IMG/VR virus record: IMGVR_UViG_3300043446_003867
Coordinates: 25,082 to 89,081 of that record
Length of the DNA stretch: 64,000 nucleotides
Source of the DNA: a virus
Strand: one strand, 5' to 3'
Below are positions 489 through 13,175 of this stretch, in pieces. A program made the translations under genes and the position numbers. The notes beneath the pieces are model-generated. The model made no database searches and was not told the DNA's origin. It saw only the letters and a program-made list of their open reading frames with translations. Position 1 is the first letter of the stretch. Every line of letters starts with the position of its first letter.

Positions 489-1060
489 TGTCGGGGCGGC
501 ACAACGGCGGTGGAGAACCGAACAAGCGCGGCGAGAGTCGCATCGTGACGATGGAACAGCGCAGGGAGCGACTGGACCTGATCGAACAACTGATGGTGCG
601 CGGAGTCGGTGCGACGAAGATCGAGAAGGCGTGTGCCGAGAAGTTCGGGATGCCGCGCAGCACGGTGTTGAAGTACATGGAGAGGCTGCGCGAGCAGTGG
701 GCAGAAGAGGAACGCGTTACACGCCCGACCAATAAAGCGACGGCGCAGCGGCGGCTCTACCAACACATTCAGAAGGCGCGCGAGGCGGATAACTGGGCGG
801 CGGTTGCGTCGTTGGAGCGCCTGCTGTCGGATATCCAAGGCACGAAGGAGGCAACGGAGGTGAACGTGAACCTCGAAGCCATGTCGCGAGAAGCGACGCT
901 GCACGTCATCGCGAACATCACGCCGGAGATGCGTGAGAAGATCCTGGGTGAGCAGCGGCGGCTTCGAGAGCTGGCGGCGAAGATCGATACGAGCGCGATG
1001 ATTCCCGTGGTGACGCCGGAAGAAGTGCTCGCACCGAGCGAATCTTCAGAGGACGAATAA
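488..1060 (+). CDS. Putative terminase small subunit / HTH DNA-binding protein
   Basis: ATG at 488; N-terminal HTH-like segment (LIEQLMVRGVGATKIEKACAEKFGMPRSTVLKYM), helical body and TEVNVN tail reminiscent of TerS; inference only. Confidence 0.4.
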   Translation: MSGRHNGGGEPNKRGESRIVTMEQRRERLDLIEQLMVRGVGATKIEKACAEKFGMPRSTVLKYMERLREQWAEEERVTRPTNKATAQRRLYQHIQKAREADNWAAVASLERLLSDIQGTKEATEVNVNLEAMSREATLHVIANITPEMREKILGEQRRLRELAAKIDTSAMIPVVTPEEVLAPSESSEDE

Positions 1061-1086
1061 AAAACACCGCGCTGGTCGATTTCGAC

Positions 1087-1115
1087 TGGCGCGGTTTTGG
1101 GTTTTGGTTTACGTT
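1087..1115 (+). promoter_or_regulatory. Array promoter copy 1
   Basis: TGGCGC-N17-TACGTT, then hairpin GGGTTCG-A-CGAGCCC. Confidence 0.75.
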
Positions 1116-1159
1116 CTGCATGTGGGTTCGACGAGCCCCGAAGGAAAAGGCAGAGAACG

Positions 1160-1375
1160 ATGGCGAAGAAGAACGAAATCCGAGAAATGAACGGCTTCCA
1201 GGTCGGCGAGATCGTTCGCGGCCCCGTGGTCGGTGTCTTCAAGATCGTCGAATTCGCGGAGATGGCTGGGGAGATGCGGGCGATGCTGCGCCTCGCGGCG
1301 ATCGTGAATGGCGAGGTGATCGTGAGCCGCGCGAAGTCGGCGCTGCTGCCCTCGGAGCTTCGCAAGCTCGCGTGA
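1160..1375 (+). CDS. Small hypothetical protein (cassette 1)
   Basis: ATG 1160 after AAGGAAAAGG leader of repeat module; MAKKNEIRE... Confidence 0.75.
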   Translation: MAKKNEIREMNGFQVGEIVRGPVVGVFKIVEFAEMAGEMRAMLRLAAIVNGEVIVSRAKSALLPSELRKLA

Positions 1376-1411
1376 GGCGATAAAAAATCTCAAACTCGCG
1401 TCGATTTTTAC

Positions 1412-1440
1412 TGGTGCGGGTTTGGGTTTCGGTTTATGGT
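1412..1440 (+). promoter_or_regulatory. Array promoter copy 2
   Basis: TGGTGC-N17-TATGGT, then perfect hairpin TCGGTCA-A-TGACCGA (1448-1462). Confidence 0.75.
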
Positions 1441-1479
1441 CTGCTCATCGGTCAATGACCGACAACGAGGAGAACGACA

Positions 1480-1854
1480 ATGGGACGGATGATCAACTTT
1501 CAGGAATACCTCGCGATCAACCACGTCGCTTCTGGTCCCGTGGTCGTGGACAACAACTACGGCGTACCGTGCCACAAGTGCGGCATCCGTATTAACCGCA
1601 GCGCGATCTGGCGGCACCTTCGCGCGGGCAAGCCCGGCGGGTGCGCGTATGTCTCGCCCGAGGAGGCGCGTGGTTACGTTGCCGGTGTCGCGTGTCAGCC
1701 CGCGGACGAGCCGGCGGGCGACCGGTCGGCGGTGCTCCAGTGGCGCAAGGGCTACAAGCGCGGGAAGGAAGATCGTATGCAGATGCTTCGACTCGGGAAG
1801 CGGGAAGCTCTCGTGAGCGTTTACGCGCGCTGCAAAGCGGCCCTTGGGTGCTGA
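1480..1854 (+). CDS. Hypothetical protein with CxxC...H possible Zn finger (cassette 2)
   Basis: GAGGAG RBS; CHKC...WRHL...C. Confidence 0.7.
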   Translation: MGRMINFQEYLAINHVASGPVVVDNNYGVPCHKCGIRINRSAIWRHLRAGKPGGCAYVSPEEARGYVAGVACQPADEPAGDRSAVLQWRKGYKRGKEDRMQMLRLGKREALVSVYARCKAALGC

Positions 1855-1861
1855 TCGCGAA

Positions 1862-1900
1862 GAACTCCTCTCGGAAAAAAAACGAGAGGGGTTCGATTTT
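1862..1900 (+). terminator. Putative intrinsic terminator fused to promoter copy 3
   Basis: GAACTCCTCTCG / A-rich loop / CGAGAGGGGTTC then GATTTT. Confidence 0.6.
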
Positions 1901-1903
1901 GAC

Positions 1904-1932
1904 TAGCGTGGGTTCGGGTTTCGGTTTATGAT
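1904..1932 (+). promoter_or_regulatory. Array promoter copy 3
   Basis: TAGCGT-N17-TATGAT. Confidence 0.75.
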
Positions 1933-1977
1933 GACTGTGTTGGGTCAATGAGCCCACGAAGAGAGAGGCAGAAGACG

Positions 1978-2370
1978 ATGAACAACGAACTCAATTCCCG
2001 TGCGTTCAACGCGTGGTCACTCCTCGCGGAGTTCCACTTCAGCGCGGAACAGGTCCGGATGATCGTGCAGGCGGTGGCGCACTTGTCGTTCGAACAGCAG
2101 GTGAAACTGGCGGTGGCGCTCTACGACATCGGGATGCGTGCGGAGTTCCTTCACGAAGAGGAGCGGTCGCTCGCGAAGCGGGTGGCGTATCTGGCGAGCA
2201 AGCAGGGGTCGATCGCGAACGACATCGCGGCGATTCAGTCGATCGCGAAGTCGATCGAGGATCTTCGTGCGCGATACAAGGCGGCGAGCGAGAAGTTTCA
2301 TCAAATGGCGAATTTCGCCGAGGTGAAACTTGCTCCCGAAATGTTCCCCGCGGACTTCGGTCGGATCTGA
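1978..2370 (+). CDS. Hypothetical helical/coiled-coil protein (cassette 3)
   Basis: ATG 1978 after module leader GAGAGGCAGAAGACG. Confidence 0.75.
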   Translation: MNNELNSRAFNAWSLLAEFHFSAEQVRMIVQAVAHLSFEQQVKLAVALYDIGMRAEFLHEEERSLAKRVAYLASKQGSIANDIAAIQSIAKSIEDLRARYKAASEKFHQMANFAEVKLAPEMFPADFGRI

Positions 2371-2487
2371 GCGGGGGCGCCATGTTCATCGCGGATTGCT
2401 GCCACGGGTGGATCAATCTCGGCCTTTGCGCCCTCGCGGCGTACGCGGGCCATCGCTTTCAAATGTTCGTGAACCCGGAGAATTGAG

Positions 2488-2664
2488 ATGAGAACGACGA
2501 TGCACAAGGACGGTTCGATCACGTATTGGAGCGTCCACCGCCAGCAGTGGGTTCGCCGCTCGCGCGGTGTCGACTTCGCGGATCTCGTCGCGATGCCCGA
2601 AAAGCTGCGCCTGCGCGTGCAGCGTCATATCGCACGACACACCCTCAAGGAGTGCGCGCCGTGA
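2488..2664 (+). CDS. Small hypothetical protein (58 aa, below ORF-track cutoff)
   Basis: GGAG RBS at ~2477; MRTTMHKDGSITYWSVHRQQW...ECAP*; stop overlaps next GTG (GTGA). Confidence 0.65.
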   Translation: MRTTMHKDGSITYWSVHRQQWVRRSRGVDFADLVAMPEKLRLRVQRHIARHTLKECAP

Positions 2665-2858
2665 GCCTTCGAATCGCGCTTTGGGTCGATCGTGTGAGCG
2701 ATCCAACCGACCCGGTGTGGATCGTTTCGCTGGAGGACGACGATAGCAGCGAGACGCTGCGCGTCTGCCCGTTCAATGAGGCGGGCGAGCGTACGGCGCG
2801 CAAGGTCGCGAAGCAGGCGGCGACCCGTCGCGGGATCCCGCTTCAGGTGGAGTCGTGA
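2661..2858 (+). CDS. Small hypothetical protein
   Basis: AAGGAG RBS, GTG start, GTGA overlaps with both neighbours. Confidence 0.6.
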   Translation: MSLRIALWVDRVSDPTDPVWIVSLEDDDSSETLRVCPFNEAGERTARKVAKQAATRRGIPLQVES

Positions 2859-3145
2859 AGGCGTTCCGGCTCTCGCAGGCGGTCGTCGATCACATTGCCG
2901 AAGACTTCGATCCGGCTGACGACGTGGTCGGCGACGAGGAGTACCTGCAACGTGCGCGGGTGCTTCGCGCGCTCATCGCGGGCGAAGCGGTGGAGCGGGC
3001 ATCCGCGGTTCGCGCGCTCCACGAAGCGGCGAACGCGTGCGACGATCGGCTCGTCGAAGGGAAGCTCGACGGGTACGAGCGGCAGCACCAAGCGCGAATG
3101 CGCGATGCTCTCACTGCGGCGGCGTATCGGTACGCGGCGCGGTAA
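2855..3145 (+). CDS. Hypothetical protein
   Basis: GGAG RBS, GTGA coupling to upstream ORF. Confidence 0.6.
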   Translation: MKAFRLSQAVVDHIAEDFDPADDVVGDEEYLQRARVLRALIAGEAVERASAVRALHEAANACDDRLVEGKLDGYERQHQARMRDALTAAAYRYAAR

Positions 3146-3733
3146 TCACTCGACAACTCGGCGTTCCTGCATCCACGTCCACAACGATGCGCCCCAAAAG
3201 GCGTAGCCCTCGGGGGTCGCGTGGATGCCGTCATTTTGGCGCGCGATCACGATGCGCGTGGAGTCGAAGGCGATCGGCGACAGCATAACGGCGCGCTGGA
3301 CGGCGTGCCGGACGGGATAGCGGACGGGAAGCGTCGGAGGGCTGATCCACACGAGCACGGCGTCGGCGTGGTTCGCGGCGGCTTGAAGTTCGCTGATCCT
3401 GGCGTCGATGTTTGCCGCGTCGCCGACAACTGCGTCGTTGGTTCCGAGGCTGACGAGCACGAGCGAAGGCTTGGTGCGCGCAAGGAGATTGCGCAAGACG
3501 GCGGGCCAGTGGACGACGCGCGAGCCGCGAACGGCGACCGTCGTCCACTCGTAACCGGCTCGCTCGGCGATGCGTTGAAGATGGGGACCAAAGCCTTCGG
3601 CGTGCGAGTCGCCGATCAATAGGATGCGCTCACCTCGACGAACGGCGGCGGCGTGGCAGTCAAACTCAAGTTCCGCGGAAGTTTTGCGAGAGGTCGACGC
3701 GAGTAGGGAGAGGGCGAGCAGAAGCGAGCGCAT
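3146..3733 (-). CDS. SGNH/GDSL-family hydrolase (esterase/lipase) with probable signal peptide
   Basis: Blocks ILLIGDSH, GSR, SLGTND, DGIH; N-terminus MRSLLLALSLLA. Confidence 0.85.
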   Translation of the reverse strand: MRSLLLALSLLASTSRKTSAELEFDCHAAAVRRGERILLIGDSHAEGFGPHLQRIAERAGYEWTTVAVRGSRVVHWPAVLRNLLARTKPSLVLVSLGTNDAVVGDAANIDARISELQAAANHADAVLVWISPPTLPVRYPVRHAVQRAVMLSPIAFDSTRIVIARQNDGIHATPEGYAFWGASLWTWMQERRVVE

Positions 3734-3750
3734 CGCGCTACGCTGCACGC

Positions 3751-4470
3751 ATGACCGTCGACGAGCAAGTCATCGACGGGGGGCCATGGACCTGCGACGA
3801 TGCGGGCACCTGCAAGCGCTTACTTTTCCGTATGTATTGGCAGCCGGTGGACGAGGCCGGCAACGTGGTGGAAAACGAGTGGGAGCACTCACAGGCGCGC
3901 GCGCGACGGGAGGCGATCGCGAAGCCGAAGCAGACCGAGAAGAGGCCCGAAGTGAAGATCGAACAGGTTGAGGAAGCGCACGCGGCACCCGCACACGAAA
4001 CGCGCGCGCAAGTTCCCGACGCACCGGCGGCGGCGCCGGTAGCACAGATCGCCGTTCCATCCCCTGCAACGGCGGCGCACGAGGTTGCAGGGCTGATGCC
4101 CGCTGGAGGGGCGGCGAACGGCATCACAGTCGTTCTCGCCGCGATCGCCGTGCTCGGTGGTGGGGCTGGGTGGAAGTTCTATTCGCAATGGGCGAAGCAG
4201 AAGCACGAGGAACGGATGGCCGAGATCGAGCGCGGCGCGCGCGTCGACGACGATGGCAAGAAGCGTTGCGAGGGGCACGCACAAGAAAGTCGCGTGGCAG
4301 TCGCGAACGTCGACGCGAAGGTCGAAGCGTTGACTCAGCGCATCGCATCGCTGGAGGCGCGTAACTCGGACACGGCGGCAATCTCGTTTGGAGAGAACGT
4401 CGAGGACCGACTCGTGAAGATTGAAAAGGCGTTGAAGGCTGCAAAGCGACGTGCGACGACGGCGCGATGA
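3751..4470 (+). CDS. Membrane protein with one TM helix and C-terminal coiled coil
   Basis: ITVVLAAIAVLGGGAGWKFY TM segment; heptad-like VDAKVEALTQRIASLE. Confidence 0.7.
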   Translation: MTVDEQVIDGGPWTCDDAGTCKRLLFRMYWQPVDEAGNVVENEWEHSQARARREAIAKPKQTEKRPEVKIEQVEEAHAAPAHETRAQVPDAPAAAPVAQIAVPSPATAAHEVAGLMPAGGAANGITVVLAAIAVLGGGAGWKFYSQWAKQKHEERMAEIERGARVDDDGKKRCEGHAQESRVAVANVDAKVEALTQRIASLEARNSDTAAISFGENVEDRLVKIEKALKAAKRRATTAR

Positions 4471-5378
4471 CTCGCGAGCGCCTGCTGACGATTGCACTGG
4501 TGATCGGCGCCGTCGCTCTGGGCGGCGCCGTTTGGTTTCAGCGTCGAGAGATCCGCCGGCTCCGCGCCGACGTCGAGCAGAAGGACGGAGAGATTCGGCG
4601 TCTCGGTGCCGGCATCGTCGTCGTGCGCGAAGTGAAGGGCGATCCGGCGACGGTGCTCGTGGCCGCGGAGCGCGCTGGGTTCGATGTTGCCACGCTCAGG
4701 GCAGACTTGGATGATCACGGAATGGTGCTCAGGGGGGTCTTAAACGCGTCCGCGAGCACGCAAGGTGGCGTGACCCCACCACACGAAGGAAAGCCCCTCG
4801 GCGGGTCGGCTACGGGCTCGCAAACGAGCATCGAGGAACGCGCGGGTGACGGCGTCGTGCCGTGGGGCCGAGCGGTGTACGATCCTGCGCAGGCGAAACC
4901 GTGGACGGTGGAGCAGTACCCGAGGACGTACTCCGCGGGCGTCGCGCTCGCGGAGCGGGAAGACGGATCGCAGTTCGCTTACGTGACGATGGGGATCGAG
5001 TCGCAGGGCTCGCGCGTGAAGCTGGAGCCCTCGGCTGTTGAGCTGACGACGACGCCGGAGCCCTCGCGCTGGCGATGGGGCGCGTGGCCGTTGCTGACGC
5101 TAGACGCCGGTTTACGGGCAGGTTCGTTCGAGTGGTTTCCGGGCGTGGCAGTCGCGTTCGCGACGCGAGGAACGCGCGCTGGAGCGCCGGAATGGACCTT
5201 CCTCGCGGCGGGGCTCGCGTACGGAATCGAAGGGCGCCGCGCGGCGTTGTCGTTCGCGCCGGTGAGTTACACGCTCCGCGATCTTCTCCCGGTACGAAGC
5301 ACGAGCGTCGGCCCGGCAATCTTCGTCGACGAACGCGCGGAACTCACGTACGCGGTCGGCTTGCGCGTGGTTTTCTGA
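4467..5378 (+). CDS. Membrane-anchored protein with coiled coil and C-terminal amphipathic beta strands
   Basis: N-terminal TM LLTIALVIGAVALGGAVWF; ATGA overlap with upstream gene; ends YAVGLRVVF. Confidence 0.75.
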   Translation: MTRERLLTIALVIGAVALGGAVWFQRREIRRLRADVEQKDGEIRRLGAGIVVVREVKGDPATVLVAAERAGFDVATLRADLDDHGMVLRGVLNASASTQGGVTPPHEGKPLGGSATGSQTSIEERAGDGVVPWGRAVYDPAQAKPWTVEQYPRTYSAGVALAEREDGSQFAYVTMGIESQGSRVKLEPSAVELTTTPEPSRWRWGAWPLLTLDAGLRAGSFEWFPGVAVAFATRGTRAGAPEWTFLAAGLAYGIEGRRAALSFAPVSYTLRDLLPVRSTSVGPAIFVDERAELTYAVGLRVVF

Positions 5379-5427
5379 GAGGATTCGCGCGAGAAAAAAA
5401 AAAACGACACGGTGTGTCGATTCTCAC

Positions 5428-5456
5428 TGGCGCGGTTTTGGGTTTTGGTTTACGGT
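5428..5456 (+). promoter_or_regulatory. Array promoter copy 4
   Basis: TGGCGC-N17-TACGGT. Confidence 0.75.
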
Positions 5457-5501
5457 GACTGTGTTGGGTCAATGAGCCCACAAGGAGAGAGGCAGAAGAC
5501 A

Positions 5502-5795
5502 ATGGCGATGTTCAAAGTTCTCTACGCGAAGAAAATCGATCTTCCTCGTCGGGCGCCCGTCGTTTTTGACTCGTGGTTCGATACCATCGGCGACGTCGAG
5601 GCGAATTCCACCGAAGGCGTGTTCGAGTACATGAACACCGAAGGGCCTAGCAAGTTCAACGTGCGATCGATGATGGTCGGCGACGTCGTGATCGCTGACG
5701 ATGGCGCGTGGCGTTGCGAGCCGGCTGGTTGGTGTCTGGTCGATATCCTGAGCACCGCCGAGCTGATTCCTCGGTTCGTAGGAAAAACCGCCTGA
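5502..5795 (+). CDS. YodL-like domain protein (cassette 4)
   Basis: EGVFEYMN...RSMMVGDVVI...AWRCEPAGW resembles the YodL signature (SLSVSDVV...YYVD..GF). Confidence 0.55.
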   Translation: MAMFKVLYAKKIDLPRRAPVVFDSWFDTIGDVEANSTEGVFEYMNTEGPSKFNVRSMMVGDVVIADDGAWRCEPAGWCLVDILSTAELIPRFVGKTA

Positions 5796-5848
5796 TCGGC
5801 GCGTCGGGATTCTCAGAGAAAAAAAAACGAACCCGCGTCGATTTCGAC

Positions 5849-5877
5849 TGGCGCGGGTTCGGGTTTCGGTTTATGGT
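5849..5877 (+). promoter_or_regulatory. Array promoter copy 5
   Basis: TGGCGC-N17-TATGGT. Confidence 0.75.
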
Positions 5878-5919
5878 CTGCATGTGGGTTCGATGAGCCC
5901 CAAGGAAAGGCAGAAGACG

Positions 5920-6072
5920 ATGAAGATCAGCAAAGCAGAACTCGCCGTTGTCCGTAAGATCGCCGCCGCCATGAAGGCGAAAGACGCGGTGGCGGCTGAG
6001 AAGCTGCTCCGGTCGCTTCGCCCCGAGATCCTGCCGGAACTGGCGGCGGTGATCCGGGAAATGATGGCGTGA
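5920..6072 (+). CDS. Small helical protein (cassette 5)
   Basis: ATG 5920 after module leader; 50 aa. Confidence 0.7.
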   Translation: MKISKAELAVVRKIAAAMKAKDAVAAEKLLRSLRPEILPELAAVIREMMA

Positions 6073-6097
6073 ATTGCTCAACGAAAGGGAGACGAAA

Positions 6098-6319
6098 ATG
6101 GCTCGTGATCTTGCAGTCGAGTTTGGTTCCTTCGCTGACGTGTGTGTGATCGTTCGCGCGTACAGCGATGCTGGGCGTCGCTTTCTGGCGCAGATGGCGG
6201 GTGTCGCGGCGGAGTACTACGCGCCCGTCGAGTCGATCGAATTGCGCAAGAGCGCGGCGCAGGACGTGTGGAATCGCGCGGTCGATGCCGGCTTGGTGAT
6301 CGATTGCGTCGCGCGCTGA
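6098..6319 (+). CDS. Small hypothetical protein
   Basis: AGGGAG RBS then ATG 6098; followed by terminator. Confidence 0.7.
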   Translation: MARDLAVEFGSFADVCVIVRAYSDAGRRFLAQMAGVAAEYYAPVESIELRKSAAQDVWNRAVDAGLVIDCVAR

Positions 6320-6328
6320 CGGCGCGGG

Positions 6329-6364
6329 TGAGGCGGCGAAAAAAAAGACGCCGCCTCATTTTTT
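6329..6364 (+). terminator. Intrinsic terminator fused to promoter copy 6
   Basis: TGAGGCGGCG / A-rich loop / CGCCGCCTCA + T6. Confidence 0.8.
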
Positions 6365-6367
6365 GAC

Positions 6368-6396
6368 TAGCGCGGGTTCGGGTTTCGGTTTATGGT
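6368..6396 (+). promoter_or_regulatory. Array promoter copy 6
   Basis: TAGCGC-N17-TATGGT. Confidence 0.75.
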
Positions 6397-7453: not shown

Positions 7454-7459
7454 TCGGGA

Positions 7460-7495
7460 AGCCCTCTCGAAAAAAAGCGAGGGGGCTCTTTTTTT
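7460..7495 (+). terminator. Intrinsic terminator fused to promoter copy 9
   Basis: AGCCCTCTCG / A7G loop / CGAGGGGGCT + CT7. Confidence 0.8.
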
Positions 7496-7497
7496 AC

Positions 7498-7526
7498 TGG
7501 CGAGGGTTCGGGTTTCGGGTTACGTT
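7498..7526 (+). promoter_or_regulatory. Array promoter copy 9
   Basis: TGGCGA-N17-TACGTT; hairpin TCGATC-AAGG-GATCGA. Confidence 0.75.
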
Positions 7527-7568
7527 CTGCTCATCGATCAAGGGATCGACAACGAGAAGGAGACGACA

Positions 7569-7862
7569 ATGAACGCGATGGTGACCATCCAACAGCTCTG
7601 CGGCGGCAACGGCAACCGGCTCGTGGCGATGATCGGCGCGCACTCGTTCTTGGCGGGGAAGAACGAACTCCACTTCCAATTCAAGGGATCCCGCGCGGCG
7701 AATCGGGTGAAGATCGAACTCAACGCGTTCGATCTCTACGATGTTACTTTCTTCGCGGGCCGTGGCGTCAACGTGCGCGAGGTGGAGCGGATCTCGAATG
7801 TTCCCGCTGAGAATCTTCGGCGCGTGTTCGTCGGTTTCACTGGACTCGACGTTTCGCTCTGA
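7569..7862 (+). CDS. Conserved phage hypothetical protein (cassette 9)
   Basis: AAGGAG RBS; QQLCGG..RLVAMIGA...DLYDVTF...FTGL resembles a common small phage family. Confidence 0.75.
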   Translation: MNAMVTIQQLCGGNGNRLVAMIGAHSFLAGKNELHFQFKGSRAANRVKIELNAFDLYDVTFFAGRGVNVREVERISNVPAENLRRVFVGFTGLDVSL

Positions 7863-8381: not shown

Positions 8382-8388
8382 TGCTGGA

Positions 8389-8423
8389 AGCCCTCTCGAA
8401 AAAACGAGGGGGCTCTTTTTTTT
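8389..8423 (+). terminator. Intrinsic terminator fused to promoter copy 11
   Basis: AGCCCTCTCG / A6 / CGAGGGGGCT + CT8 (near-identical to 7460-7495). Confidence 0.8.
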
Positions 8424-8425
8424 AC

Positions 8426-8454
8426 TGGCGTGGTTTTGGGTTTCGGGTTACGTT
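8426..8454 (+). promoter_or_regulatory. Array promoter copy 11
   Basis: TGGCGT-N17-TACGTT. Confidence 0.75.
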
Positions 8455-8496
8455 CTGCATGTGGGTTCGATGAGCCCCAAGGAAAGGCAGAGAACG

Positions 8497-8874
8497 ATGA
8501 ACGCTCACGAGATCAAGATCGCCGAGGAAGCTTACGAGGGTGCGGGCGTGGAGGCGGCGCTGGTTGTGGCGCGCGGTGCGCTGCGTAGCGCGCGCGTCGC
8601 GGGTAAAGCGGCGAAGTCGGCGGCGGAACACGAGGTCGCGGCGCTGGCGTACAAGCGCGCGGTCGAAGCGATCGAAGCGGCGCGCGCGGCGATGTGGAGG
8701 GCGCTTTACGGGTGGTGTGTCGCGGTCGACGAATTGGAGCGCGCGGACGCGAACGATCGCGCGCGGCGGAGCCCCTACGCGGCGCTTGAGGCTGGCTTGG
8801 AGGCGGGGCTGAAGGAAGCGAACGAAGCGAACGGGATGCACGCGCTGGCGTACGTGCGCGCGATGCGTGCGTGA
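8497..8874 (+). CDS. Ala-rich helical protein (cassette 11), paralog of 8990-9394
   Basis: ATG after module leader; alignable by eye to next ORF. Confidence 0.75.
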   Translation: MNAHEIKIAEEAYEGAGVEAALVVARGALRSARVAGKAAKSAAEHEVAALAYKRAVEAIEAARAAMWRALYGWCVAVDELERADANDRARRSPYAALEAGLEAGLKEANEANGMHALAYVRAMRA

Positions 8875-8922
8875 TCGCGGATCCTCCTCTCTCGAAAACG
8901 CGAGGGGGGGATCGTTTTCTAC

Positions 8923-8951
8923 TGGTTCGGTTACAGGTTTTGGGTTATGCT
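8923..8951 (+). promoter_or_regulatory. Array promoter copy 12 (diverged)
   Basis: TGGTTC-N17-TATGCT, preceded by hairpin and T tract at 8880-8918. Confidence 0.7.
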
Positions 8952-8989
8952 CATCGCGGTGGGTCGATGAACCCGAAAATGGAAAGGAA

Positions 8990-9394
8990 ATGGCTATGAA
9001 AGACGCAATCGCGATCCGGATTGAACAGCGTGAGGCGGAGCTTGCCGCGTCGGCGTATCGCGCGGCGAACGTTGAGGAGATGCTTCGTGTTTCGCGCGAG
9101 AAGCTGCTCGAAGCGCGTCGCCTTGGAGACGTCGCAGATGGCGAGGAGAACTACGAAGCGTATGGTGCGGCGGCGCTCGCATACGACGAGGCGGCAGTGG
9201 CTATCGGGAAGGCGCGCCGTGCGCTCGGTGGGGCATACGTGAGCTGGAGCGATGCAGTCGCGAAGTGGGAACGCCCGGACGCGTACGACTTCGCGCCGCG
9301 GAATCCTTACGAGAAGATCGAAGCGGTACTTGAGGAGGAGCGGGAAGAAGTGAACGCAGGGCGGCGACTCTACTCGCTTCTGGCGATGTTCTGA
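8990..9394 (+). CDS. Helical protein (cassette 12), paralog of 8497-8874
   Basis: GGAAAGGA leader; shared AALAY..A..AI..AR.A and ER.DA.D...R.PY motifs. Confidence 0.75.
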   Translation: MAMKDAIAIRIEQREAELAASAYRAANVEEMLRVSREKLLEARRLGDVADGEENYEAYGAAALAYDEAAVAIGKARRALGGAYVSWSDAVAKWERPDAYDFAPRNPYEKIEAVLEEEREEVNAGRRLYSLLAMF

Positions 9395-9406
9395 GAATCC
9401 TGGCCG

Positions 9407-9450
9407 GATCCTCTCATCGAAAAAAAAAAGCGATGAGGGGATCTTTTTTT
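9407..9450 (+). terminator. Intrinsic terminator fused to promoter copy 13
   Basis: GATCCTCTCATCG / A10G / CGATGAGGGGATC + T7. Confidence 0.8.
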
Positions 9451-9452
9451 GC

Positions 9453-9481
9453 TGGTTCGGTTTCGGGTTTGGGTTTATGGT
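9453..9481 (+). promoter_or_regulatory. Array promoter copy 13
   Basis: TGGTTC-N17-TATGGT. Confidence 0.75.
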
Positions 9482-9524
9482 CTGCTCATCGGTCAACGGG
9501 CCGACAACGGGAAGGCAGAAGAAG

Positions 9525-9725
9525 ATGAGCGCATTCGGGAAGGGTCAGATCGTCGTCGCGAAGTCGGCAGCGCAGGGGCTCGTGAAGGGTCGGAAGTACG
9601 TGGTGCTGGCTGTCCTGAACACCGTCGGCGGCTGGTATCTCTACGAGGTGCACGGGGTGGAGGGATCGAACAACTCGGTCCTCCGGATCGCCAACGCGCA
9701 GTTCGTCTTTTCTGAGGTGAAGTGA
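9525..9725 (+). CDS. Small beta-rich (possibly SH3-like) protein (cassette 13)
   Basis: FGKGQIVV...GLVKGRKYVV...YEV pattern. Confidence 0.7.
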   Translation: MSAFGKGQIVVAKSAAQGLVKGRKYVVLAVLNTVGGWYLYEVHGVEGSNNSVLRIANAQFVFSEVK

Positions 9726-9733
9726 TCGGGCGG

Positions 9734-9769
9734 GAACGCCTCGCGAGTGGATCGCGGGGCGTTCTTTTT
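9734..9769 (+). terminator. Intrinsic terminator fused to promoter copy 14
   Basis: GAACGCCTCGCGA...TCGCGGGGCGTTC + T5. Confidence 0.75.
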
Positions 9770-9772
9770 CGC

Positions 9773-9801
9773 TTGATAGGTTTCGGGTTTCGGGTTATGG
9801 T
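9773..9801 (+). promoter_or_regulatory. Array promoter copy 14 (near-consensus sigma70)
   Basis: TTGATA-N17-TATGGT; hairpin TCGGA-CAAGGT-TCCGA. Confidence 0.85.
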
Positions 9802-9841
9802 TTCCGTATCGGACAAGGTTCCGACAACGAGGAGATGAGCG

Positions 9842-9952
9842 ATGAACAACGAGGAAGTGCTTGAGGCGAACGCGGGCGAGATCGAGGCGGACGAGCGGCG
9901 CGCGGAGGAGATCGACGACGCGGAGTGTTACGGCGCGGAGCATTGGGGCTGA
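9842..9952 (+). CDS. 36-aa highly acidic peptide (cassette 14; not in ORF track)
   Basis: GAGGAG RBS; MNNEEVLEANAGEIEADERRAEEIDDAECYGAEHWG*. Confidence 0.7.
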   Translation: MNNEEVLEANAGEIEADERRAEEIDDAECYGAEHWG

Positions 9953-9959
9953 ACGGCGC

Positions 9960-9988
9960 AAAAAAGCCCGCGGAGGGTATCCGCGGGC
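9960..9988 (-). terminator. Intrinsic terminator of the lysozyme gene (possibly bidirectional)
   Basis: A6 + GCCCGCGGA-GGGTA-TCCGCGGGC between convergent genes. Confidence 0.75.
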
Positions 9989-10009
9989 GTCGTTGCATTG
10001 TGGGTCAGG

Positions 10010-10471
10010 TCAAACGGGCTTCATCCACAGGTCGCCTTCGGCTTTGCGGCGCTTGGTGAGGCCGGGGAGGGCTTGGAGCTTTCCGCCGACGGTGGCCTTG
10101 TCCCACATGGCGAGACCGGCGGGAACCAGCTCCGGCTTACCGGCGCGGAGGTTTTTCATCGCGGTGGAGTCATTGAGCGGGCCGGAGCCGACGTTGTAAG
10201 TCCAGCTGACGAGGGCATCGAACTGGTTCTGATTGAGCGGCGGAAGGTTCGCGCGATGGATCGCCTTCTCGAAGCGAACGAGGTCTTTCGCGAGCAGTTC
10301 GCTGGCCTGGGCTTCGGTCAGCTCGGTAAACGTCTCGCCCTTCTCGACAACGTGGCCGTAGCCGATGGTCGGCTTACCGGCGGGGCAGAGGTAGACTTTC
10401 GGGACGAAGCCTTCGCAGTCTTTGATCAGCTTGAGGCCAGCGGCGCCGGTTTTGAGATGTTCGTTGCTCAT
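10010..10471 (-). CDS. Phage lysozyme / endolysin (GH24)
   Basis: IKDCEG...YLCPAGKPTIGYG, LNQNQFDALVSWTYNVG, GLTKRRKAE motifs. Confidence 0.95.
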   Translation of the reverse strand: MSNEHLKTGAAGLKLIKDCEGFVPKVYLCPAGKPTIGYGHVVEKGETFTELTEAQASELLAKDLVRFEKAIHRANLPPLNQNQFDALVSWTYNVGSGPLNDSTAMKNLRAGKPELVPAGLAMWDKATVGGKLQALPGLTKRRKAEGDLWMKPV

Positions 10472-10682
10472 GGTCGAATTTCCTCCGGGAAAAGCCAGGG
10501 TAACGAAAAAAAGTGATCAGGCGAGACAAAAACGGACGCGGAGCGCGTCATGGGGGAAGTCGTATCCCGAAGGGAACGGATGGGGGTGAGGAGCCGGGAG
10601 GGAAAGGACGGCAGGAAGCGTCGCCCAGTTGGGTACTGGGGAGGCAGAAAAGGGCTTGATGATAACTAGCCGTTAATACCGA

Positions 10683-11099
10683 GTGGCGCGCGAGGCAGGG
10701 ACCGTGGAGAGAGCGAAGACGGGAAAGAAACGACGGGTGACGCGGACTCGACGGCAGTTGAGTGTGGGGGAGCGGTTCGGCGCGTTGGTTGTGGAGACGG
10801 TACGCCCGACGACGTTTCGATGTGACTGCGGGAAGGTCGTCGAGAAGCGGATGCCGTATGCGGTCTACACGAGCAAGCATCCTAGCTGCGGGTGTAAGCG
10901 AGTCGCGTACAAGAGCGAGAAGCGAACGAACTCGCCGAACTACGAGCTAGTCGGCTTGGCGAATGACGCAGACAAGGTCACGTACATGCGCTGGCGGGTG
11001 AGGTGTAGGAAGTGCGGAGCGGAACTCACTGTCTCGAATGGTCAGCTCTTGGTCAGTAGGAAGAACCGCTACGGGTGTCGAATCTGCCTCATGGGGTAG
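10683..11099 (+). CDS. Cys-rich protein (CDCG/SCGC motifs typical of phage HNH/AP2-associated Zn-binding region)
   Basis: GERFGALVV...RCDCG...SCGC...CRKCG...CRIC. Confidence 0.65.
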   Translation: MAREAGTVERAKTGKKRRVTRTRRQLSVGERFGALVVETVRPTTFRCDCGKVVEKRMPYAVYTSKHPSCGCKRVAYKSEKRTNSPNYELVGLANDADKVTYMRWRVRCRKCGAELTVSNGQLLVSRKNRYGCRICLMG

Positions 11100-11117
11100 A
11101 AAGTCGAGTTCTAACCG

Positions 11118-11447
11118 ATGACGTTGGGAAGATTGCTGCGGGGAATCAGGGAAGAGAGAGGGTGGACGCTGAGGCATGTCGCGAAACGCGCGGGATTGTC
11201 GCCGACGATCGTGTCGAGAGTGGAGACGGACCAGGATAGGATCGCGCCCGATACGCTCGAATCACTCCTGGTGACGATCGAAGCGAACGAGGAGCAGACC
11301 ACGCGGGCGTTCTTTCTCGCAGGTAGGTTCCCGGACTCCGTGCTGGAACGCGCGCTGGCGTCAGAGGAGAACTTCGCGAGCGTCATCCGGTTCGTTCGTA
11401 GTCTCCCGATCCCGAACCCTTCCCGCTATCCGGCTCGATCTCCCTGA
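11118..11447 (+). CDS. XRE-family helix-turn-helix transcriptional regulator
   Basis: LGRLLRGIREERGWTLRHVAKRAGLSPTIVSRVE. Confidence 0.9.
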   Translation: MTLGRLLRGIREERGWTLRHVAKRAGLSPTIVSRVETDQDRIAPDTLESLLVTIEANEEQTTRAFFLAGRFPDSVLERALASEENFASVIRFVRSLPIPNPSRYPARSP

Positions 11448-12086
11448 GCGTGTACCCGTATGCGGCGGTCTATCGTTCTCCGCGAGACGTTCGAGAGAGA
11501 TGGTCTGACCCCCGTTCGCGGTACCCTCTGAGCGCCCCGGTCGTCGTATCGATGAACTCACTCGTACCCCATCGCTCACGACCCATTTTCAACCCCGTTC
11601 CACCCTCACGGTAGATGATTCGTACCGTCGAGTTTTCCAGCGAAATAATCGCAACGGATTGGCCTACGCTGGTCGCTTCGCGCGTCTCCTCAGCGGTCAG
11701 AAGGCCGATTGCCGGGCCGTGACCGGCCCTCCCCGAGCCTTTCGAGAGCCACCCTAGGGGTCGATGACCCCCGAGGCATCGACGCGTTAAAACGCCGTTT
11801 AGGAGGAAGTTGCTCCGAGGGGGATCGGTACGGTGTGAACCGAAACGGTCGTTTCGGGTCACGGAGGGGCGACTCGGGTGCTCGGAATTGGCCGACGTTA
11901 CCCTTTACGTGGGGGCATGCCCTGGCTCGATCTTGCGGTCGTTTCCTCGCGGCTGACCGCGGCTGCGGGCCGCTGGGCGGCTCGCCGAGGCCGCTGGCAC
12001 GCGAGGGGGGTGCAGGGGAAGTGACGGGGGGCGTGCAGGACAAGGGTACCCCAAACTCGTCGTGACAAATTTTTAGGTTAGGCGAC

Positions 12087-12115
12087 TTGAAGGGATTCGG
12101 GTTTTGGGTTACGCA
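12087..12115 (+). promoter_or_regulatory. Array promoter copy 15 (degenerate -10)
   Basis: TTGAAG-N17(GGATTCGGGTTTTGGGT)-TACGCA. Confidence 0.55.
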
Positions 12116-12208
12116 CAAAGGAGTGGCCGAAGGTCGGTCGACGGAGGTGGAGAGGAATGAGCGCGAAGGTTGTCGGTGAGTGCGTCATGGGTGGAGTGGA
12201 GGTGTGTG

Positions 12209-12547
12209 ATGCGAGTGTTTTTGACTCCGAGGGCGTTGGTTGGGGTTGGTGAGTGGGAGCGGGTGGGGGAAGCGATATTGTTCGGGTGTGAGGAGTATTT
12301 GATCGGGGGTGTGTCGTTCGTGGTGTGGAGCGAGGACGAGGGGTCGCGGGTATTGGGGGCGGTGTATGAGATCGACGCGGAGGGGGTTGAGGGGATTGAT
12401 CGGCGGATGGTGGATCAGTCGAGGGAGGAGCGGACGGTGTTGATGGGAGGGGTGGCGGAATTCGCGGAGGTGTATGTGTTGCGGAATCGGGCGTTGTTGG
12501 CGGGATCGTGGGACGTGGAAAAGATGTCGATGAGCGGTCCGGGATGA
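12209..12547 (+). CDS. Gamma-glutamylcyclotransferase/AIG2-like fold protein (divergent)
   Basis: GGAGG RBS; VLGAVYEIDAEGVEGID...R..V...AEVYV resembles GGCT-like family; N-terminal YG motif absent. Confidence 0.45.
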   Translation: MRVFLTPRALVGVGEWERVGEAILFGCEEYLIGGVSFVVWSEDEGSRVLGAVYEIDAEGVEGIDRRMVDQSREERTVLMGGVAEFAEVYVLRNRALLAGSWDVEKMSMSGPG

Positions 12548-12557
12548 CGAATTCTAC

Positions 12558-12586
12558 TTGATTGGGTTCGGGTTTCGGGATATGGT
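12558..12586 (+). promoter_or_regulatory. Array promoter copy 16 (near-consensus sigma70)
   Basis: TTGATT-N17-TATGGT; hairpin GGGTTC-AAG-GAGCCC. Confidence 0.85.
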
Positions 12587-12628
12587 CTGCTTGTGGGTTC
12601 AAGGAGCCCCGAAGAAGGAGACGGGATC

Positions 12629-12820
12629 ATGGGAAAGCGAATCAAGATTGACGGTGTGGTTTGTGAGGTTGTGAACGCGTATTCGAGCGGGCCGGGAGCG
12701 CCGGCGTTCGAGTACGACCTACGCGATGGGGGGTATGTGTATTGCGTGGGGCCGGAGTGGAAGTTGCAGATGAGGGGTCAGTTCGCGCGGGTGGTGAACG
12801 TCGAGATCATCGCGGAGTGA
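12629..12820 (+). CDS. Small hypothetical protein (cassette 16)
   Basis: AAGGAG RBS, ATG 12629. Confidence 0.7.
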   Translation: MGKRIKIDGVVCEVVNAYSSGPGAPAFEYDLRDGGYVYCVGPEWKLQMRGQFARVVNVEIIAE

Positions 12821-12827
12821 TTTTCAC

Positions 12828-12856
12828 TTGCGTGGTTTTGGGTTTCGGTTTATGGT
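12828..12856 (+). promoter_or_regulatory. Array promoter copy 17
   Basis: TTGCGT-N17-TATGGT; hairpin TCGGA-CAACGA-TCCGA. Confidence 0.8.
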
Positions 12857-12896
12857 TCCTGTATCGGACAACGATCCGACAACGAGGAGGTGAGTC

Positions 12897-13175
12897 GTGG
12901 GTGAGTGGAAGTTCAACAAGTGGGCGGATTGCTACGGGGCGTTGATCGAGGAGATCCCCGAAGTGGCGGCGGCGCGAGTGGCGGAGGTCTTCGGTCGCGG
13001 CGTGGAGATGAATCATAAGGATTACGGGGCGGAGTGGGTTTTCGAGGGGTGTGTCGAGGGGCGGCGGGTGAATTACCGCGTGTATGAGCGCGGGGGCGTC
13101 ATGAGGTTCGGGGGGCCGCATGATCATTTCGGATTTGCGGCGTTCCGCGCGTGGTTTCTGGCGTGTGTTGCGTGA
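12897..13175 (+). CDS. Small hypothetical protein (cassette 17)
   Basis: GAGGAGGT RBS before start. Confidence 0.65.
   Translation: MGEWKFNKWADCYGALIEEIPEVAAARVAEVFGRGVEMNHKDYGAEWVFEGCVEGRRVNYRVYERGGVMRFGGPHDHFGFAAFRAWFLACVA

What the first reader, a model, noticed from the sequence alone, without database searches (positions are those of the whole stretch)
1058..13175. Array of 17 self-contained expression cassettes built from one repeated promoter-leader module
Seen: 17 co-oriented copies of a ~100-bp module. Each has a -35-like hexamer, an exactly 17-bp conserved spacer, a TAYGNT -10 (copy 15 is TACGCA), a hairpin, an A/G-rich RBS and then one or a few small, mostly unrelated ORFs (36-135 aa). 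Established: clusters of small early genes with individual strong sigma70 promoters occur in host-takeover regions/terminal repeats of SPO1-, T5- and Twort-like phages. Inference: the whole module, not just the hexamers, is conserved, so the region behaves like a plug-in cassette array. Genes could be gained, lost or shuffled by recombination between modules, making it a reservoir of candidate anti-defence or host-takeover genes.
Basis: partly seen in the sequence, partly recalled or inferred. Interest (0 to 1): 0.85.

Follow-up and report, generated by a model that had tools for sequence, protein, structure and literature searches.

The report
Phage promoter-terminator gene cassette array
An uncultured freshwater phage carries 17 small accessory-gene units in a row, each with its own stop hairpin, promoter, RNA leader hairpin and ribosome site; this is an ordinary though very tidy example of a layout already described in T4-type phages.

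Summary
The 21-nt core occurs 17 times, all on the + strand, between window 1093 and 12834. It occurs nowhere else in the 89-kb phage genome; shuffles expect 0.02 copies. Each unit has a weak -35, an indel-free 17-bp spacer made of three GGTTTYG heptamers, and a TAYGNT -10. A purine lies 7 nt further on (17 of 17), followed by a hairpin with covarying stems (17 of 17), an SD and a start codon 38-45 nt after the -10.

Cargo is almost all orphan. None of the 30 array proteins occurs in 65 related loci, while the flanking TerS-like, resolvase and TerL genes do. One relative (L026) has the same architecture at the same locus, with a different spacer and different cargo.

Evidence for shuffling is indirect: mosaic modules (PHI p 0.0002-0.009), one tandem paralogue pair, and one contig that skips exactly one cassette, which may be an assembly artefact.

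The closest known kind is the PeSL cassette of T4-type phages. This scan has found the same kind before on other DNA. I classify it as a new member of a known kind. Timing, transcription start sites and any anti-defence role remain untested.

The parts
488..1060 (+). TerS-like gene (190 aa). Left flank of the variable slot.
   Evidence: phrog_4102 terminase small subunit, E 2.3e-4, a weak hit. Homologues occur in 10 of 65 related loci.
1061..1375 (+). Cassette 1. Hairpin 1066-1095, whose 3' arm overlaps the -35. -35 at 1087-1092, spacer 1093-1109, -10 at 1110-1115, predicted start 1122. ORF 1160-1375 (71 aa).
1376..1854 (+). Cassette 2. Hairpin 1389-1426 overlapping the -35. Core starts at 1418, -10 at 1435-1440. 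ORF 1480-1854 (124 aa, Cys-rich).
1855..3145 (+). Cassette 3. Hairpin with an A-rich loop, core at 1910. ORFs 1978-2370 (130 aa), 2382-2486, 2488-2664, 2661-2858 and 2855-3145.
3146..5378 (.). Non-cassette block. Minus-strand SGNH/GDSL hydrolase 3146-3748, and + strand ORFs 3751-4470 (239 aa) and 4467-5378 (303 aa).
   Evidence: Pfam DUF459 / Lipase_GDSL_2. No homologue in 65 related loci or in IMG/VR. Covered by a diverged relative in run X4.
5379..5795 (+). Cassette 4. Core at 5434. ORF 5502-5795 (97 aa).
5796..6319 (+). Cassette 5. Hairpin 5828-5861 overlapping the -35, core at 5855. ORFs 5920-6072 (50 aa) and 6098-6319 (73 aa).
6320..6624 (+). Cassette 6. Core at 6374. ORF 6442-6624 (60 aa). 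This is the unit skipped by the X2 contig joint 6402->6698.
6625..7072 (+). Cassette 7. Core at 6669. ORF 6737-7072 (111 aa, LPD29 domain).
   Evidence: Pfam LPD29 E 3e-11. phrog_10415 E 7e-20. Homologues in 61 isolated-phage records.
7073..7453 (+). Cassette 8. Core at 7126. ORF 7190-7453 (87 aa, Cys-rich).
7454..7862 (+). Cassette 9. Hairpin 7460-7487, core at 7504. ORF 7569-7862 (97 aa).
   Evidence: phrog_9437 E 3e-15. Homologues in 13 isolated-phage records.
7863..8381 (+). Cassette 10. Hairpin 7893-7926 overlapping the -35, core at 7920. ORFs 7986-8177 and 8190-8381 (63 aa each).
8382..8874 (+). Cassette 11. Hairpin 8389-8414, core at 8432. ORF 8497-8874 (125 aa), a paralogue of the cassette 12 ORF.
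8875..9394 (+). Cassette 12. Hairpin 8885-8910, core at 8929 (the most diverged spacer). ORF 8990 or 8996 to 9394 (about 133 aa).
9395..9725 (+). Cassette 13. Core at 9459. ORF 9525-9725 (66 aa).
9726..9952 (+). Cassette 14. Hairpin 9732-9766, core at 9779, with TTGATA-17-TATGGT. ORF 9842-9952 (36 aa).
9966..12090 (.). Non-cassette block. Hairpin 9966-9988, minus-strand lysozyme 10010-10471, HNH-like Zn-ribbon ORF 10683-11099, XRE-type HTH ORF 11118-11447, and about 640 bp with no convincing ORF.
   Evidence: Pfam Phage_lysozyme E 4e-38 and HTH_31 E 6e-12. phrog_374, weak. Terminator scan.
12050..12547 (+). Cassette 15. No upstream hairpin. Core at 12093, -10 is TACGCA. Likely ORF 12209-12547 (112 aa, weak GGACT-like). 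The 31-aa ORF 12157-12252 is doubtful.
12548..12820 (+). Cassette 16. The module starts 10 nt after the upstream stop and has no terminator. Core at 12564. ORF 12629-12820 (63 aa).
12821..13175 (+). Cassette 17. The module starts 7 nt after the upstream stop and has no terminator. Core at 12834. ORF 12897-13175 (92 aa, GTG start). It runs on into the resolvase gene without a terminator.
13192..13911 (+). Small serine recombinase (resolvase/invertase type). Right flank of the slot.
   Evidence: Pfam Resolvase E 2e-33. Homologues in 13 of 65 related loci, next to TerL in L026, L274 and L276, and inverted in L025.
13908..16049 (+). Pyrimidine-dimer glycosylase-like gene 13908-14387 and the large terminase 14409-16049. 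This is the start of the structural operon.
   Evidence: Pfam Pyr_excise. TerL homologues.

Best explanation
The region is an array of composite terminator-promoter-leader units of the PeSL type. The units drive small accessory genes of an uncultured, roughly 89-kb, high-GC, contractile-tailed freshwater phage.

Proposed mechanism, with shown and inferred steps marked:
- Host RNA polymerase holoenzyme with the housekeeping sigma binds the TAnnnT -10. It is helped by a weak T(G/T)G -35 at a fixed 17-bp distance and by the T-rich tract upstream (inferred).
- Transcription starts at the conserved purine 7 nt after the -10 (inferred).
- The first 20 or so nucleotides of the RNA fold into a 5-6-bp hairpin that leaves only 1-3 unpaired 5' nucleotides (hairpin and covariation shown). 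I infer that it protects the mRNA 5' end, or is bound by a phage factor.
- An SD 6-9 nt before the start codon gives efficient translation.
- The hairpin plus T-run in front of the next unit stops the transcript, so units 1-14 are insulated one- or two-gene transcripts (inferred from sequence).
- Units 15-17 lack terminators and probably read into the resolvase and terminase genes.
- The spacer, three GGTTTYG heptamers, is the best conserved block. It is most likely a constraint of promoter function or a site for a phage regulator that controls all units together (inferred).
- About 100 bp of similarity repeated 17 times also gives sites for homologous recombination, which can delete, duplicate or swap the genes between units (indirect evidence only).
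For: - There are 17 co-oriented copies against 0.02 expected, and none elsewhere in the genome.
- Columns 9-38 of the alignment are free of gaps.
- Mean pairwise identity by block: spacer 0.85 (10 of 17 columns invariant), -10 0.81, -35 0.61, discriminator 0.41, SD region 0.53.
- Position 7 after the -10 is a purine in 17 of 17 copies and position 6 a pyrimidine in 16 of 17, across 10 distinct 7-mers.
- Leader hairpins occur in 17 of 17 copies at +8 to +10, with dG -5.3 to -9.2 kcal/mol.
- There are 9 distinct outer stems, all fully paired with their own partner. In 66 of 72 cross-combinations fewer than 5 of 5 pairs form.
- The start codon lies 38-45 nt after the -10, preceded by an SD. GC3 is 0.70-0.86 in 16 of 17 first ORFs.
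- Strong hairpins lie between the upstream stop codon and the promoter in modules 1-14. In modules 1, 2, 5 and 10 they overlap the -35.
- No phage RNA polymerase was found among the proteins I scanned. The 2011-aa and 1266-aa proteins match tail-fibre PHROGs.
- Relative L026 (TerL 67% identical) has 5 units with the same geometry just upstream of its resolvase and TerL. They have TTGACA-like -35 boxes, a different conserved 17-bp spacer, TAnnnT, and leader hairpins in 5 of 5 with 4 different stems followed by GGAAAGG.
- Cargo is accessory. Only 1 of 22 small cassette proteins passes a Pfam cut-off. None of the 30 array proteins is found in 65 related loci, whereas TerS-like (10 loci), resolvase (13) and TerL (65) are. 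Two cargo families occur in unrelated isolated phages, in 61 and 13 records.
- Recombination: PHI p 0.0002-0.0006, and 0.0086 without the hairpin columns. Cassettes 11 and 12 are paralogues at 36-41% identity. An X2 contig joins 6402 to 6698.
- The PeSL description in PMC2839356 (sections 13 and 16 read) matches element by element.
Against: - There are no RNA data, so neither start sites nor timing are known; no RNA holder was listed.
- The -35 is poor in 13 of 17 copies. The generic sigma-70 scan flags only module 14.
- The host and its promoter consensus are unknown.
- Single hairpins are weak: z-scores run from -2.9 to +0.17, and only 8 of 17 have 7 or fewer of 200 shuffles folding as well. 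The case rests on position and covariation among related copies.
- The generic terminator scan of the region is not enriched overall (18 found against 13.1 +/- 3.8 expected).
- Modules 15-17 have no terminators and would send 'early' transcription into the packaging genes.
- The deletion joint is a single contig with 38 nt shared on both sides, more than the assembler's word length, so it may be an artefact.
- The near-identical phage in a second study (X3) shows 0-2 differences in three array pieces. That is no sign of turnover.
- The closest fetched relatives (L025, L269-L272; TerL 70-74%) show no module array in the fragments available.
Confidence: 0.62

Rival explanations
1. The cassettes are the same, but the promoter is not a plain host promoter. 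The conserved 17-bp box between the weak -35 and the -10 is the recognition site of a phage-specified factor. That factor could be an activator that replaces -35 contacts, as MotA/AsiA do at T4 middle promoters (recalled), a divergent phage sigma, or a repressor that shuts the whole array off. On this reading the array would be a delayed or switchable class rather than immediate early.
For: - The spacer is better conserved (0.85) than the -35 (0.61) and far better than the neighbouring discriminator (0.41).
- Relative L026 keeps the geometry but has a wholly different box, and its box is dyad-symmetric: GGCCC-N6-GGGCC.
- The phage encodes a weak Sigma70_r2-like protein (E 7e-5, below the Pfam cut-off).
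- An XRE-type HTH protein is encoded inside the array.
- No canonical sigma-70 promoter is flagged in the other 25 kb (0 found against 3.4 and 1.0 expected).
Against: - The sigma-like hit is below threshold and is not backed by NCBIfam (E 0.09) or PDB sequence searches.
- No MotA- or AsiA-like protein was seen among the proteins scanned.
- Conserved spacers also occur in strong host-type early promoters of T4 (recalled).
- Gene conversion among copies could keep the box uniform without a binding protein.
Confidence: 0.25
2. An integron-like system. The adjacent small serine recombinase would excise and insert cassettes at the repeated modules.
For: A resolvase gene sits at the 3' edge of the variable slot here and in L026, L274 and L276. 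Its NCBIfam hits include cassette-chromosome recombinases, though far below their cut-offs. The slot content differs completely between relatives.
Against: - The module core is a direct heptamer repeat without the dyad symmetry that serine recombinase dimers use (the site rule is recalled).
- Every cassette has its own promoter, unlike integron cassettes.
- The resolvase is kept in L025, where no array is seen, and there it is inverted.
- Mosaic junctions lie anywhere in the module rather than at one crossover point.
Confidence: 0.04
3. The repeats are packaging (pac/TerS-binding) or replication (iteron) sites that happen to lie between the terminase genes.
For: They lie between a TerS-like gene and TerL. 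They are short direct repeats.
Against: Every copy sits at a fixed 38-45 nt before an SD and start codon, after a stop codon and hairpin, and all are co-oriented with the genes. The copies are spread over 12 kb rather than clustered.
Confidence: 0.02

Closest known systems
PeSLs (promoter-early stem-loops) of T4-type phages RB49/phi1, T4/PST and KVP40/nt-1. Sources: Arbiol et al. 2010, PMC2839356 (abstract and sections 13 and 16 read); Comeau et al. 2014, PMC4122927 (abstract and conclusion read).
   Same: A repeated unit of about 100 bp that runs from the upstream stop codon through an A/T-rich tract, -35/-10, a stem-loop, an SD and the start codon. In PeSLs the stem-loop may lie upstream of the -35, overlap it, or follow the -10. 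The units are concentrated upstream of orphan genes in hyperplastic regions. They insulate early units from downstream late genes and are proposed as sites of homologous exchange that delete or insert single genes. The X2 joint would be exactly such a deletion.
   Different: - The phage is unrelated to T4: its TerL is at most 32% identical to any isolated phage, and the best hits are not T4-like.
- There is one compact 12-kb array of 17 units, against about 50 PeSLs spread over several regions.
- The -35 is far from consensus, and the spacer is the most conserved block.
- There are two separate hairpins per unit: an upstream terminator and a covarying leader hairpin.
- No activity or mini-circle data exist here. 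The reporter data of the paper are in a supplement that I could not open.
SPO1 host-takeover module. Sources: passages of PMC6873191 read; Stewart et al. 1998 seen only as a cited reference.
   Same: About 12 kb of mostly small genes with their own strong promoters and ribosome sites, arranged as short operons.
   Different: In SPO1 the module lies in the terminal region, the genes are shown to be early, and several are toxic to the host. Here the genome ends, the timing and the effects are unknown, and the array lies between terminase genes.
T4 middle promoters (MotA box with sigma appropriation). Recalled; not checked in a call.
   Same: A host-type -10 combined with a conserved phage-specific box where the -35/spacer should be, and a poor -35.
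   Different: No MotA or AsiA homologue was seen. The box here spans the whole spacer and is a tandem heptamer.
Integron cassette arrays. Recalled.
   Same: A row of unrelated small genes separated by a repeated element, next to a recombinase gene.
   Different: The recombinase is a serine, not a tyrosine, recombinase. There is no attC-like imperfect palindrome. Each cassette carries its own promoter.

Membership tests
PeSL-type composite promoter-terminator cassettes | Sigma-70-like promoter (-35 and -10 at about 17 bp) | tested here: inconclusive
   The -10 is TAnnnT in 16 of 17 copies and the spacer is exactly 17 bp in 17 of 17. A pyrimidine-purine step lies 6-7 nt after the -10. However, the -35 matches TTGACA at only 2-3 of 6 positions in 13 of 17 copies. 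There is no activity test.
PeSL-type composite promoter-terminator cassettes | Stem-loop adjoining or overlapping the promoter that can terminate upstream transcription | tested here: met
   This is met at sequence level only. Hairpins with 9-15-bp stems lie before modules 1-14. In 4 of these the hairpin overlaps the -35, and the others are followed by a T-run. Modules 15-17 have none.
PeSL-type composite promoter-terminator cassettes | A/T-rich tract upstream of the -35 | tested here: met
   A-runs and T-runs flank the hairpins of modules 1-14 in a genome of 61-62% GC.
PeSL-type composite promoter-terminator cassettes | SD and start codon of the downstream gene at the 3' end of the unit | tested here: met
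   Present in 17 of 17 copies, with the start 38-45 nt after the -10.
PeSL-type composite promoter-terminator cassettes | Preferential position upstream of orphan genes in a variable region | tested here: met
   All 17 copies lie in one 12-kb stretch. Only 1 of 22 small cargo proteins passes a Pfam cut-off. None of the 30 array proteins is found in 65 related loci, while the flanks are conserved.
PeSL-type composite promoter-terminator cassettes | Recombination between units makes indels, replacements or mini-circles | tested here: inconclusive
   PHI p 0.0002-0.0086. One paralogous neighbouring pair. One contig joint skips cassette 6, which may be an artefact. No relative with the same module could be fetched.
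PeSL-type composite promoter-terminator cassettes | Promoter and terminator activity shown by experiment; early timing | not testable with these tools
   No RNA run was listed and the host is unknown.
Integron | Tyrosine integrase, attC sites, promoterless cassettes | tested here: not met
   The neighbouring recombinase is of the serine type (Pfam Resolvase). The repeat is a direct heptamer triplet. Every cassette has a promoter-like unit.
SPO1-type host-takeover module | Location in the terminal redundancy; early expression; host shut-off proteins | not testable with these tools
   The record is 'linear' with no end repeats found. There are no expression or toxicity data.
Phage single-subunit or virion RNA polymerase promoters | A phage-encoded RNA polymerase is present | tested here: not met
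   No polymerase family was found among the proteins scanned. The two giant proteins match tail-fibre and baseplate PHROGs. Not every ORF of the genome was scanned.

The most novel reading that the evidence does not exclude
Phages of this clade place a private 17-bp box inside otherwise host-type promoters. Here the box is a triple GGTTTYG heptamer; in relative L026 it is a GGCCC-N6-GGGCC dyad. One phage-encoded DNA-binding protein could then switch a whole array of accessory-gene cassettes on or off. The same roughly 100-bp units, with their covarying 5' leader hairpin, would serve as the recombination sites through which cassettes are exchanged. That would be a lineage-specific promoter code coupled to a gene-shuffling device, sitting between the two terminase genes.
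Probability: 0.22. Interest if true: 0.6.

Novelty: new member of a known kind. Interest (0 to 1): 0.35.

Why it matters
This shows that the PeSL design also exists in a high-GC, uncultured freshwater phage lineage unrelated to T4. The design combines a terminator, promoter, leader and ribosome site as one repeated portable unit in front of orphan genes. A relative keeps the architecture while changing the sequence.

That makes the 24 or so small genes here good candidates for host-takeover or counter-defence screens. It also makes the 17-bp spacer box and the 5' hairpin simple, testable regulatory parts.

It does not open a new question. The principle is in print, and this scan has met the same layout in several other phage groups.

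Tried and rejected
**Searching for the module elsewhere**
- IMG/VR gave 16 contigs with a single match each.
They were swamped by (GGGTTTY)n heptamer microsatellites.
- An nhmmer profile of the 17 copies found no full-length unit in any fetched locus. The best hits were 5 partial ones with E 7e-5 to 7e-4, and the one I read (L063) is not a unit.
- These scans are therefore inconclusive for metagenomes.
- The core pattern was searched in the whole records of 50 of the 65 related loci. One of the 50 had a single 2-mismatch hit. I left out the 15 most distant or shortest loci: L315-L318, L320-L328, L330 and L331.

**Closer relatives**
- TerL homologues at 88% (P0002, Logan) and 83% (P0005, ENA, a 92.7-kb contig) exist.
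- Cluster look-ups gave no organism names except one Armatimonadia MAG for a 55% relative.
- The 303-aa array protein has no relative in IMG/VR.

**Expression**
- No RNA holder was listed.
- In X3 and X4 many parts of the array have no cover. I draw nothing from that.

**Other promoter readings**
- TTGACT, present in copies 3, 6 and 7, as the -35 would need a 22-nt spacer. Rejected.
- Sigma-54 (GG-N10-GC): 4 of 17 copies lack the GG, and 17 of 17 have GG rather than GC at the -12 place. This is my reading of alignment A2. Rejected.
- A phage RNA polymerase promoter: no polymerase was found.

**Sigma-like protein (genome 7212-7871)**
- Pfam Sigma70_r2 scored 22.9 bits, below the cut-off of 24.
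- NCBIfam gave E 0.09.
- The PDB sequence search found nothing relevant.
- I left it as unconfirmed and did not fold it.

**Cargo function and other checks**
- The ESM Atlas gave nothing at or above 0.8 for the 124-aa and 125-aa proteins.
- No tRNA genes and no Rfam family at gathering score were found.
- Self-comparison of the full records of five relatives recovered 16 of 17 units in the own genome, as a control, and the 5 units of L026.
- In G009 that method found only Ala/Pro-rich coding repeats, and in G007 and G011 nothing array-like.
- Papers in the listing other than the two I read, and those in the listing other than PMC6873191, were seen as listings only.
- Supplementary files were not opened. 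Supplementary fig. S1 of PMC2839356 holds the reporter data for PeSL activity.

Full report
**What is there**

The window is bases 25082-89081 of an 89,081-bp IMG/VR virus record, classed as linear and 97% complete. The 21-nt core GGKTTYRGGTTTNGGKWTAYG occurs 17 times. All copies are on the + strand, between window 1093 and 12834. An eighteenth match is a 7-nt shifted overlap. Dinucleotide shuffles expect 0.02 matches. The rest of the genome has no copy. The repeat finder recovers the same families independently.

**Anatomy**

The alignment of the 17 units (A2) has no gap from column 9 to column 38. This gives:
- a hexamer T(G/T/A)GNNN in the -35 position;
- an exactly 17-bp spacer made of three tandem GGTTTYG heptamers;
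- TAYGNT as the -10. TATGGT occurs nine times, and copy 15 has TACGCA.

The spacer is the best conserved block. Its mean pairwise identity is 0.85, with 10 of 17 columns invariant. The -10 scores 0.81, the -35 0.61, the discriminator 0.41 and the SD region 0.53. Thirteen of the 17 '-35' boxes match TTGACA at only 2-3 of 6 positions.

The discriminator is variable (10 distinct 7-mers). Even so, position 7 after the -10 is a purine in 17 of 17 copies and position 6 a pyrimidine in 16 of 17. That is what a transcription start there would require.

A hairpin begins 8-10 nt after the -10 in all 17 copies, with dG from -5.3 to -9.2 kcal/mol. Singly these hairpins are weak, with z-scores from -2.9 to +0.17. 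There are nine different outer stems, and each pairs fully with its own partner. In 66 of 72 cross-combinations fewer than five of five pairs form. The helix is therefore maintained by compensatory change.

An SD-like run and a start codon follow, 38-45 nt after the -10. Sixteen of the 17 first ORFs have the GC3 bias of real genes.

Modules 1-14 each begin with a strong hairpin, with stems of 9-15 bp, placed between the upstream stop codon and the promoter. Each has an A-run or A-rich loop. In modules 1, 2, 5 and 10 the 3' arm is the -35 region itself. In the others a T-run follows. Modules 15-17 start 7-10 nt after the preceding stop and have no hairpin. Cassette 17 runs straight into the resolvase gene.

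**Cargo**

- Of 22 small cassette proteins scanned, one passes a Pfam cut-off: LPD29 in cassette 7. A GGACT-like hit (cassette 15) and a YodL-like hit (cassette 4) are below their cut-offs.
- PHROGs adds families of unknown function for cassettes 7 and 9. These two families occur in 61 and 13 records of unrelated isolated phages.
- Only cassettes 11 and 12, which are neighbours, are paralogous, at 36-41% identity.
- Two blocks interrupt the array. Block 2382-5378 holds a minus-strand SGNH hydrolase and two larger ORFs. Block 9966-12090 holds a minus-strand lysozyme, an HNH-like ORF, an XRE-type HTH gene and about 640 bp without a clear gene.

**Context**

- Upstream lies a 25-kb replication module: helicases, primase, family-B polymerase, a RecA-like protein, a TET-associated glycosyltransferase and nucleases.
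- Immediately left of the array is a weak TerS-like gene.
- Immediately right are a small serine recombinase, a pyrimidine-dimer glycosylase-like gene and TerL, followed by the structural genes.
- Nearly all genes are on one strand, and intergenic gaps outside the array are few.
- No phage RNA polymerase was found. The two giant proteins match tail-fibre families.
- A possible sigma-like protein is below threshold.

**Relatives**

No isolated phage is close; the best TerL identity is 32%. The protein database holds 721 TerL homologues at E <= 1e-50.

From IMG/VR I obtained 65 loci with TerL 23-74% identical. Their contents compare as follows:
- None of the 30 proteins encoded inside the array has a homologue in those loci. 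The TerS-like gene (10 loci), resolvase (13), TerL (65) and the gene after TerL (26) do.
- L025 shares 95-96% identical structural proteins but has quite different genes before TerL, and its resolvase pair is inverted.
- In L274 the TerS-like-to-resolvase interval is 4.3 kb, against 12.1 kb here.
- The core motif is absent from 49 of the 50 whole records I searched.

One relative, L026 (TerL 67%), has five units of the same architecture directly before its resolvase and TerL. They have TTGACA-like -35 boxes, a conserved but different and dyad-symmetric 17-bp spacer, TAnnnT, a leader hairpin in 5 of 5 with four different stems, and then GGAAAGG and ATG. Its cargo includes amidoligase, Mom-family and GGACT proteins.

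The closest fragments (L025, L269-L272) show no such array in what is available. More distant relatives use other private repeats, mostly perfect palindromes spread over the genome.

**Recombination**

- The modules are mosaics. Of 1176 pairs of informative sites, 749 are incompatible. Neighbouring sites are more compatible than permuted ones: PHI p 0.0002-0.0006, and 0.0086 after removing the hairpin columns.
- Public runs: X1 and X2 are one freshwater sample, and X1 may be the source of this DNA. X3, from another study, holds the same phage at low depth with 0-2 differences in three array pieces. X4 holds a diverged relative that covers mostly backbone genes.
- One X2 contig (962 nt) joins 6402 to 6698. 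It skips 295 nt, which is exactly cassette 6, with 38 nt common to both sides. That is the product expected from exchange between neighbouring units. It is also what a k=31 assembler could produce by error, so I count it only as a hint.

**How it most likely works**

Host holoenzyme starts at the purine 7 nt after the TAnnnT box. The RNA begins with a short hairpin that leaves one to three free nucleotides. By analogy with 5' stabilisers known from enteric bacteria and Bacillus (recalled), this would slow 5'-end-dependent decay or serve as a protein handle. The SD then drives translation, and the next unit's hairpin ends the transcript.

The conserved spacer is either a structural requirement of a promoter with a poor -35 or the site of a phage regulator. 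I cannot separate these, and I give the regulator version about one chance in four. An integron-like role for the neighbouring serine recombinase, and a packaging or replication role for the repeats, fit the anatomy badly.

**Comparison with what is known**

The unit matches the published description of PeSLs of T4-type phages element by element. The proposed consequences also match: insulation of early orphan genes, and indels by exchange between units (PMC2839356, sections 13 and 16; PMC4122927, abstract and conclusion). The SPO1 host-takeover module is a looser parallel (PMC6873191, passages).

Notes of this scan report the same kind of array in phAPEC8-type, Arthrobacter-phage-like and crAss-like genomes. 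I did not check those notes.

What is particular here is:
- the unrelated, high-GC lineage;
- the compact single array between the terminase genes;
- the spacer-centred conservation;
- the separate covarying leader hairpin, whose architecture but not sequence is shared with L026.

I classify it as a new member of a known kind.

**Limits**

- The host is unknown and there are no RNA data.
- There is no relative with the same module.
- The relatives examined are mostly fragments, 7-100% complete.
- The statistics on 17 related copies are not independent observations.

Noticed in passing
L180, L213, L215, L237 (Planctomycetaceae MAG contigs) and many Bacteroidota loci among L147-L266: Tandem (GGGTTTY)n heptamer microsatellites are common in MAGs. 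In several Planctomycetaceae contigs two such arrays face each other as inverted repeats around a short GC-rich spacer at gene ends. One Phycisphaeraceae MAG has them at many contig ends. They resemble the phage's promoter spacer in sequence only.
   Followed up: partly
L281/L279, L292, L309, L277, L300/L287: More distant relatives (TerL 44-51%) each carry their own perfect 18-30-bp palindrome, most centred on ATCGAT. It is repeated 4-12 times before genes on both sides of TerL. These may be phage-private operator or terminator elements.
   Followed up: partly
L025 (IMGVR_UViG_3300046007_012096): Proteins after TerL are 91-96% identical to the window's, but TerL is only 74% identical. The resolvase/glycosylase pair lies inverted 2.6 kb upstream. 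This marks a sharp mosaic boundary at the terminase gene.
   Followed up: no
L026 2525-7692: The analogous cassette array of this relative carries Amidoligase_2, Mom-family, DUF6011 and GGACT proteins. This is a DNA- or peptide-modification set that may bear on counter-defence.
   Followed up: no
genome 14986-15849 (L267): A TET-associated glycosyltransferase lies in the replication module. It suggests glycosylated, hypermodified DNA bases.
   Followed up: no
window 11450-12090: About 640 bp between the HTH gene and module 15 have no convincing ORF, yet run X4's diverged relative gives depth over bin 11401-12000. There is no Rfam hit.
   Followed up: no
proteins P0022, P0037, P0077: Some TerL homologues are about 940 aa long and carry Hint/LAGLIDADG domains (PF13403, PF14528), which indicates inteins in the terminase of relatives.
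   Followed up: no
L274 4553-5288: A noncoding stretch of nested direct repeats (units of 54-170 bp) lies between the TerS-like gene and the resolvase of this relative, in the slot where the window has its array.
   Followed up: no
G013 (record of L274) 47124, 50411, 50730, minus strand: Three copies of a hairpin + SD + start-codon leader lie on the opposite strand. This may be a small cassette set elsewhere in that relative.
   Followed up: no
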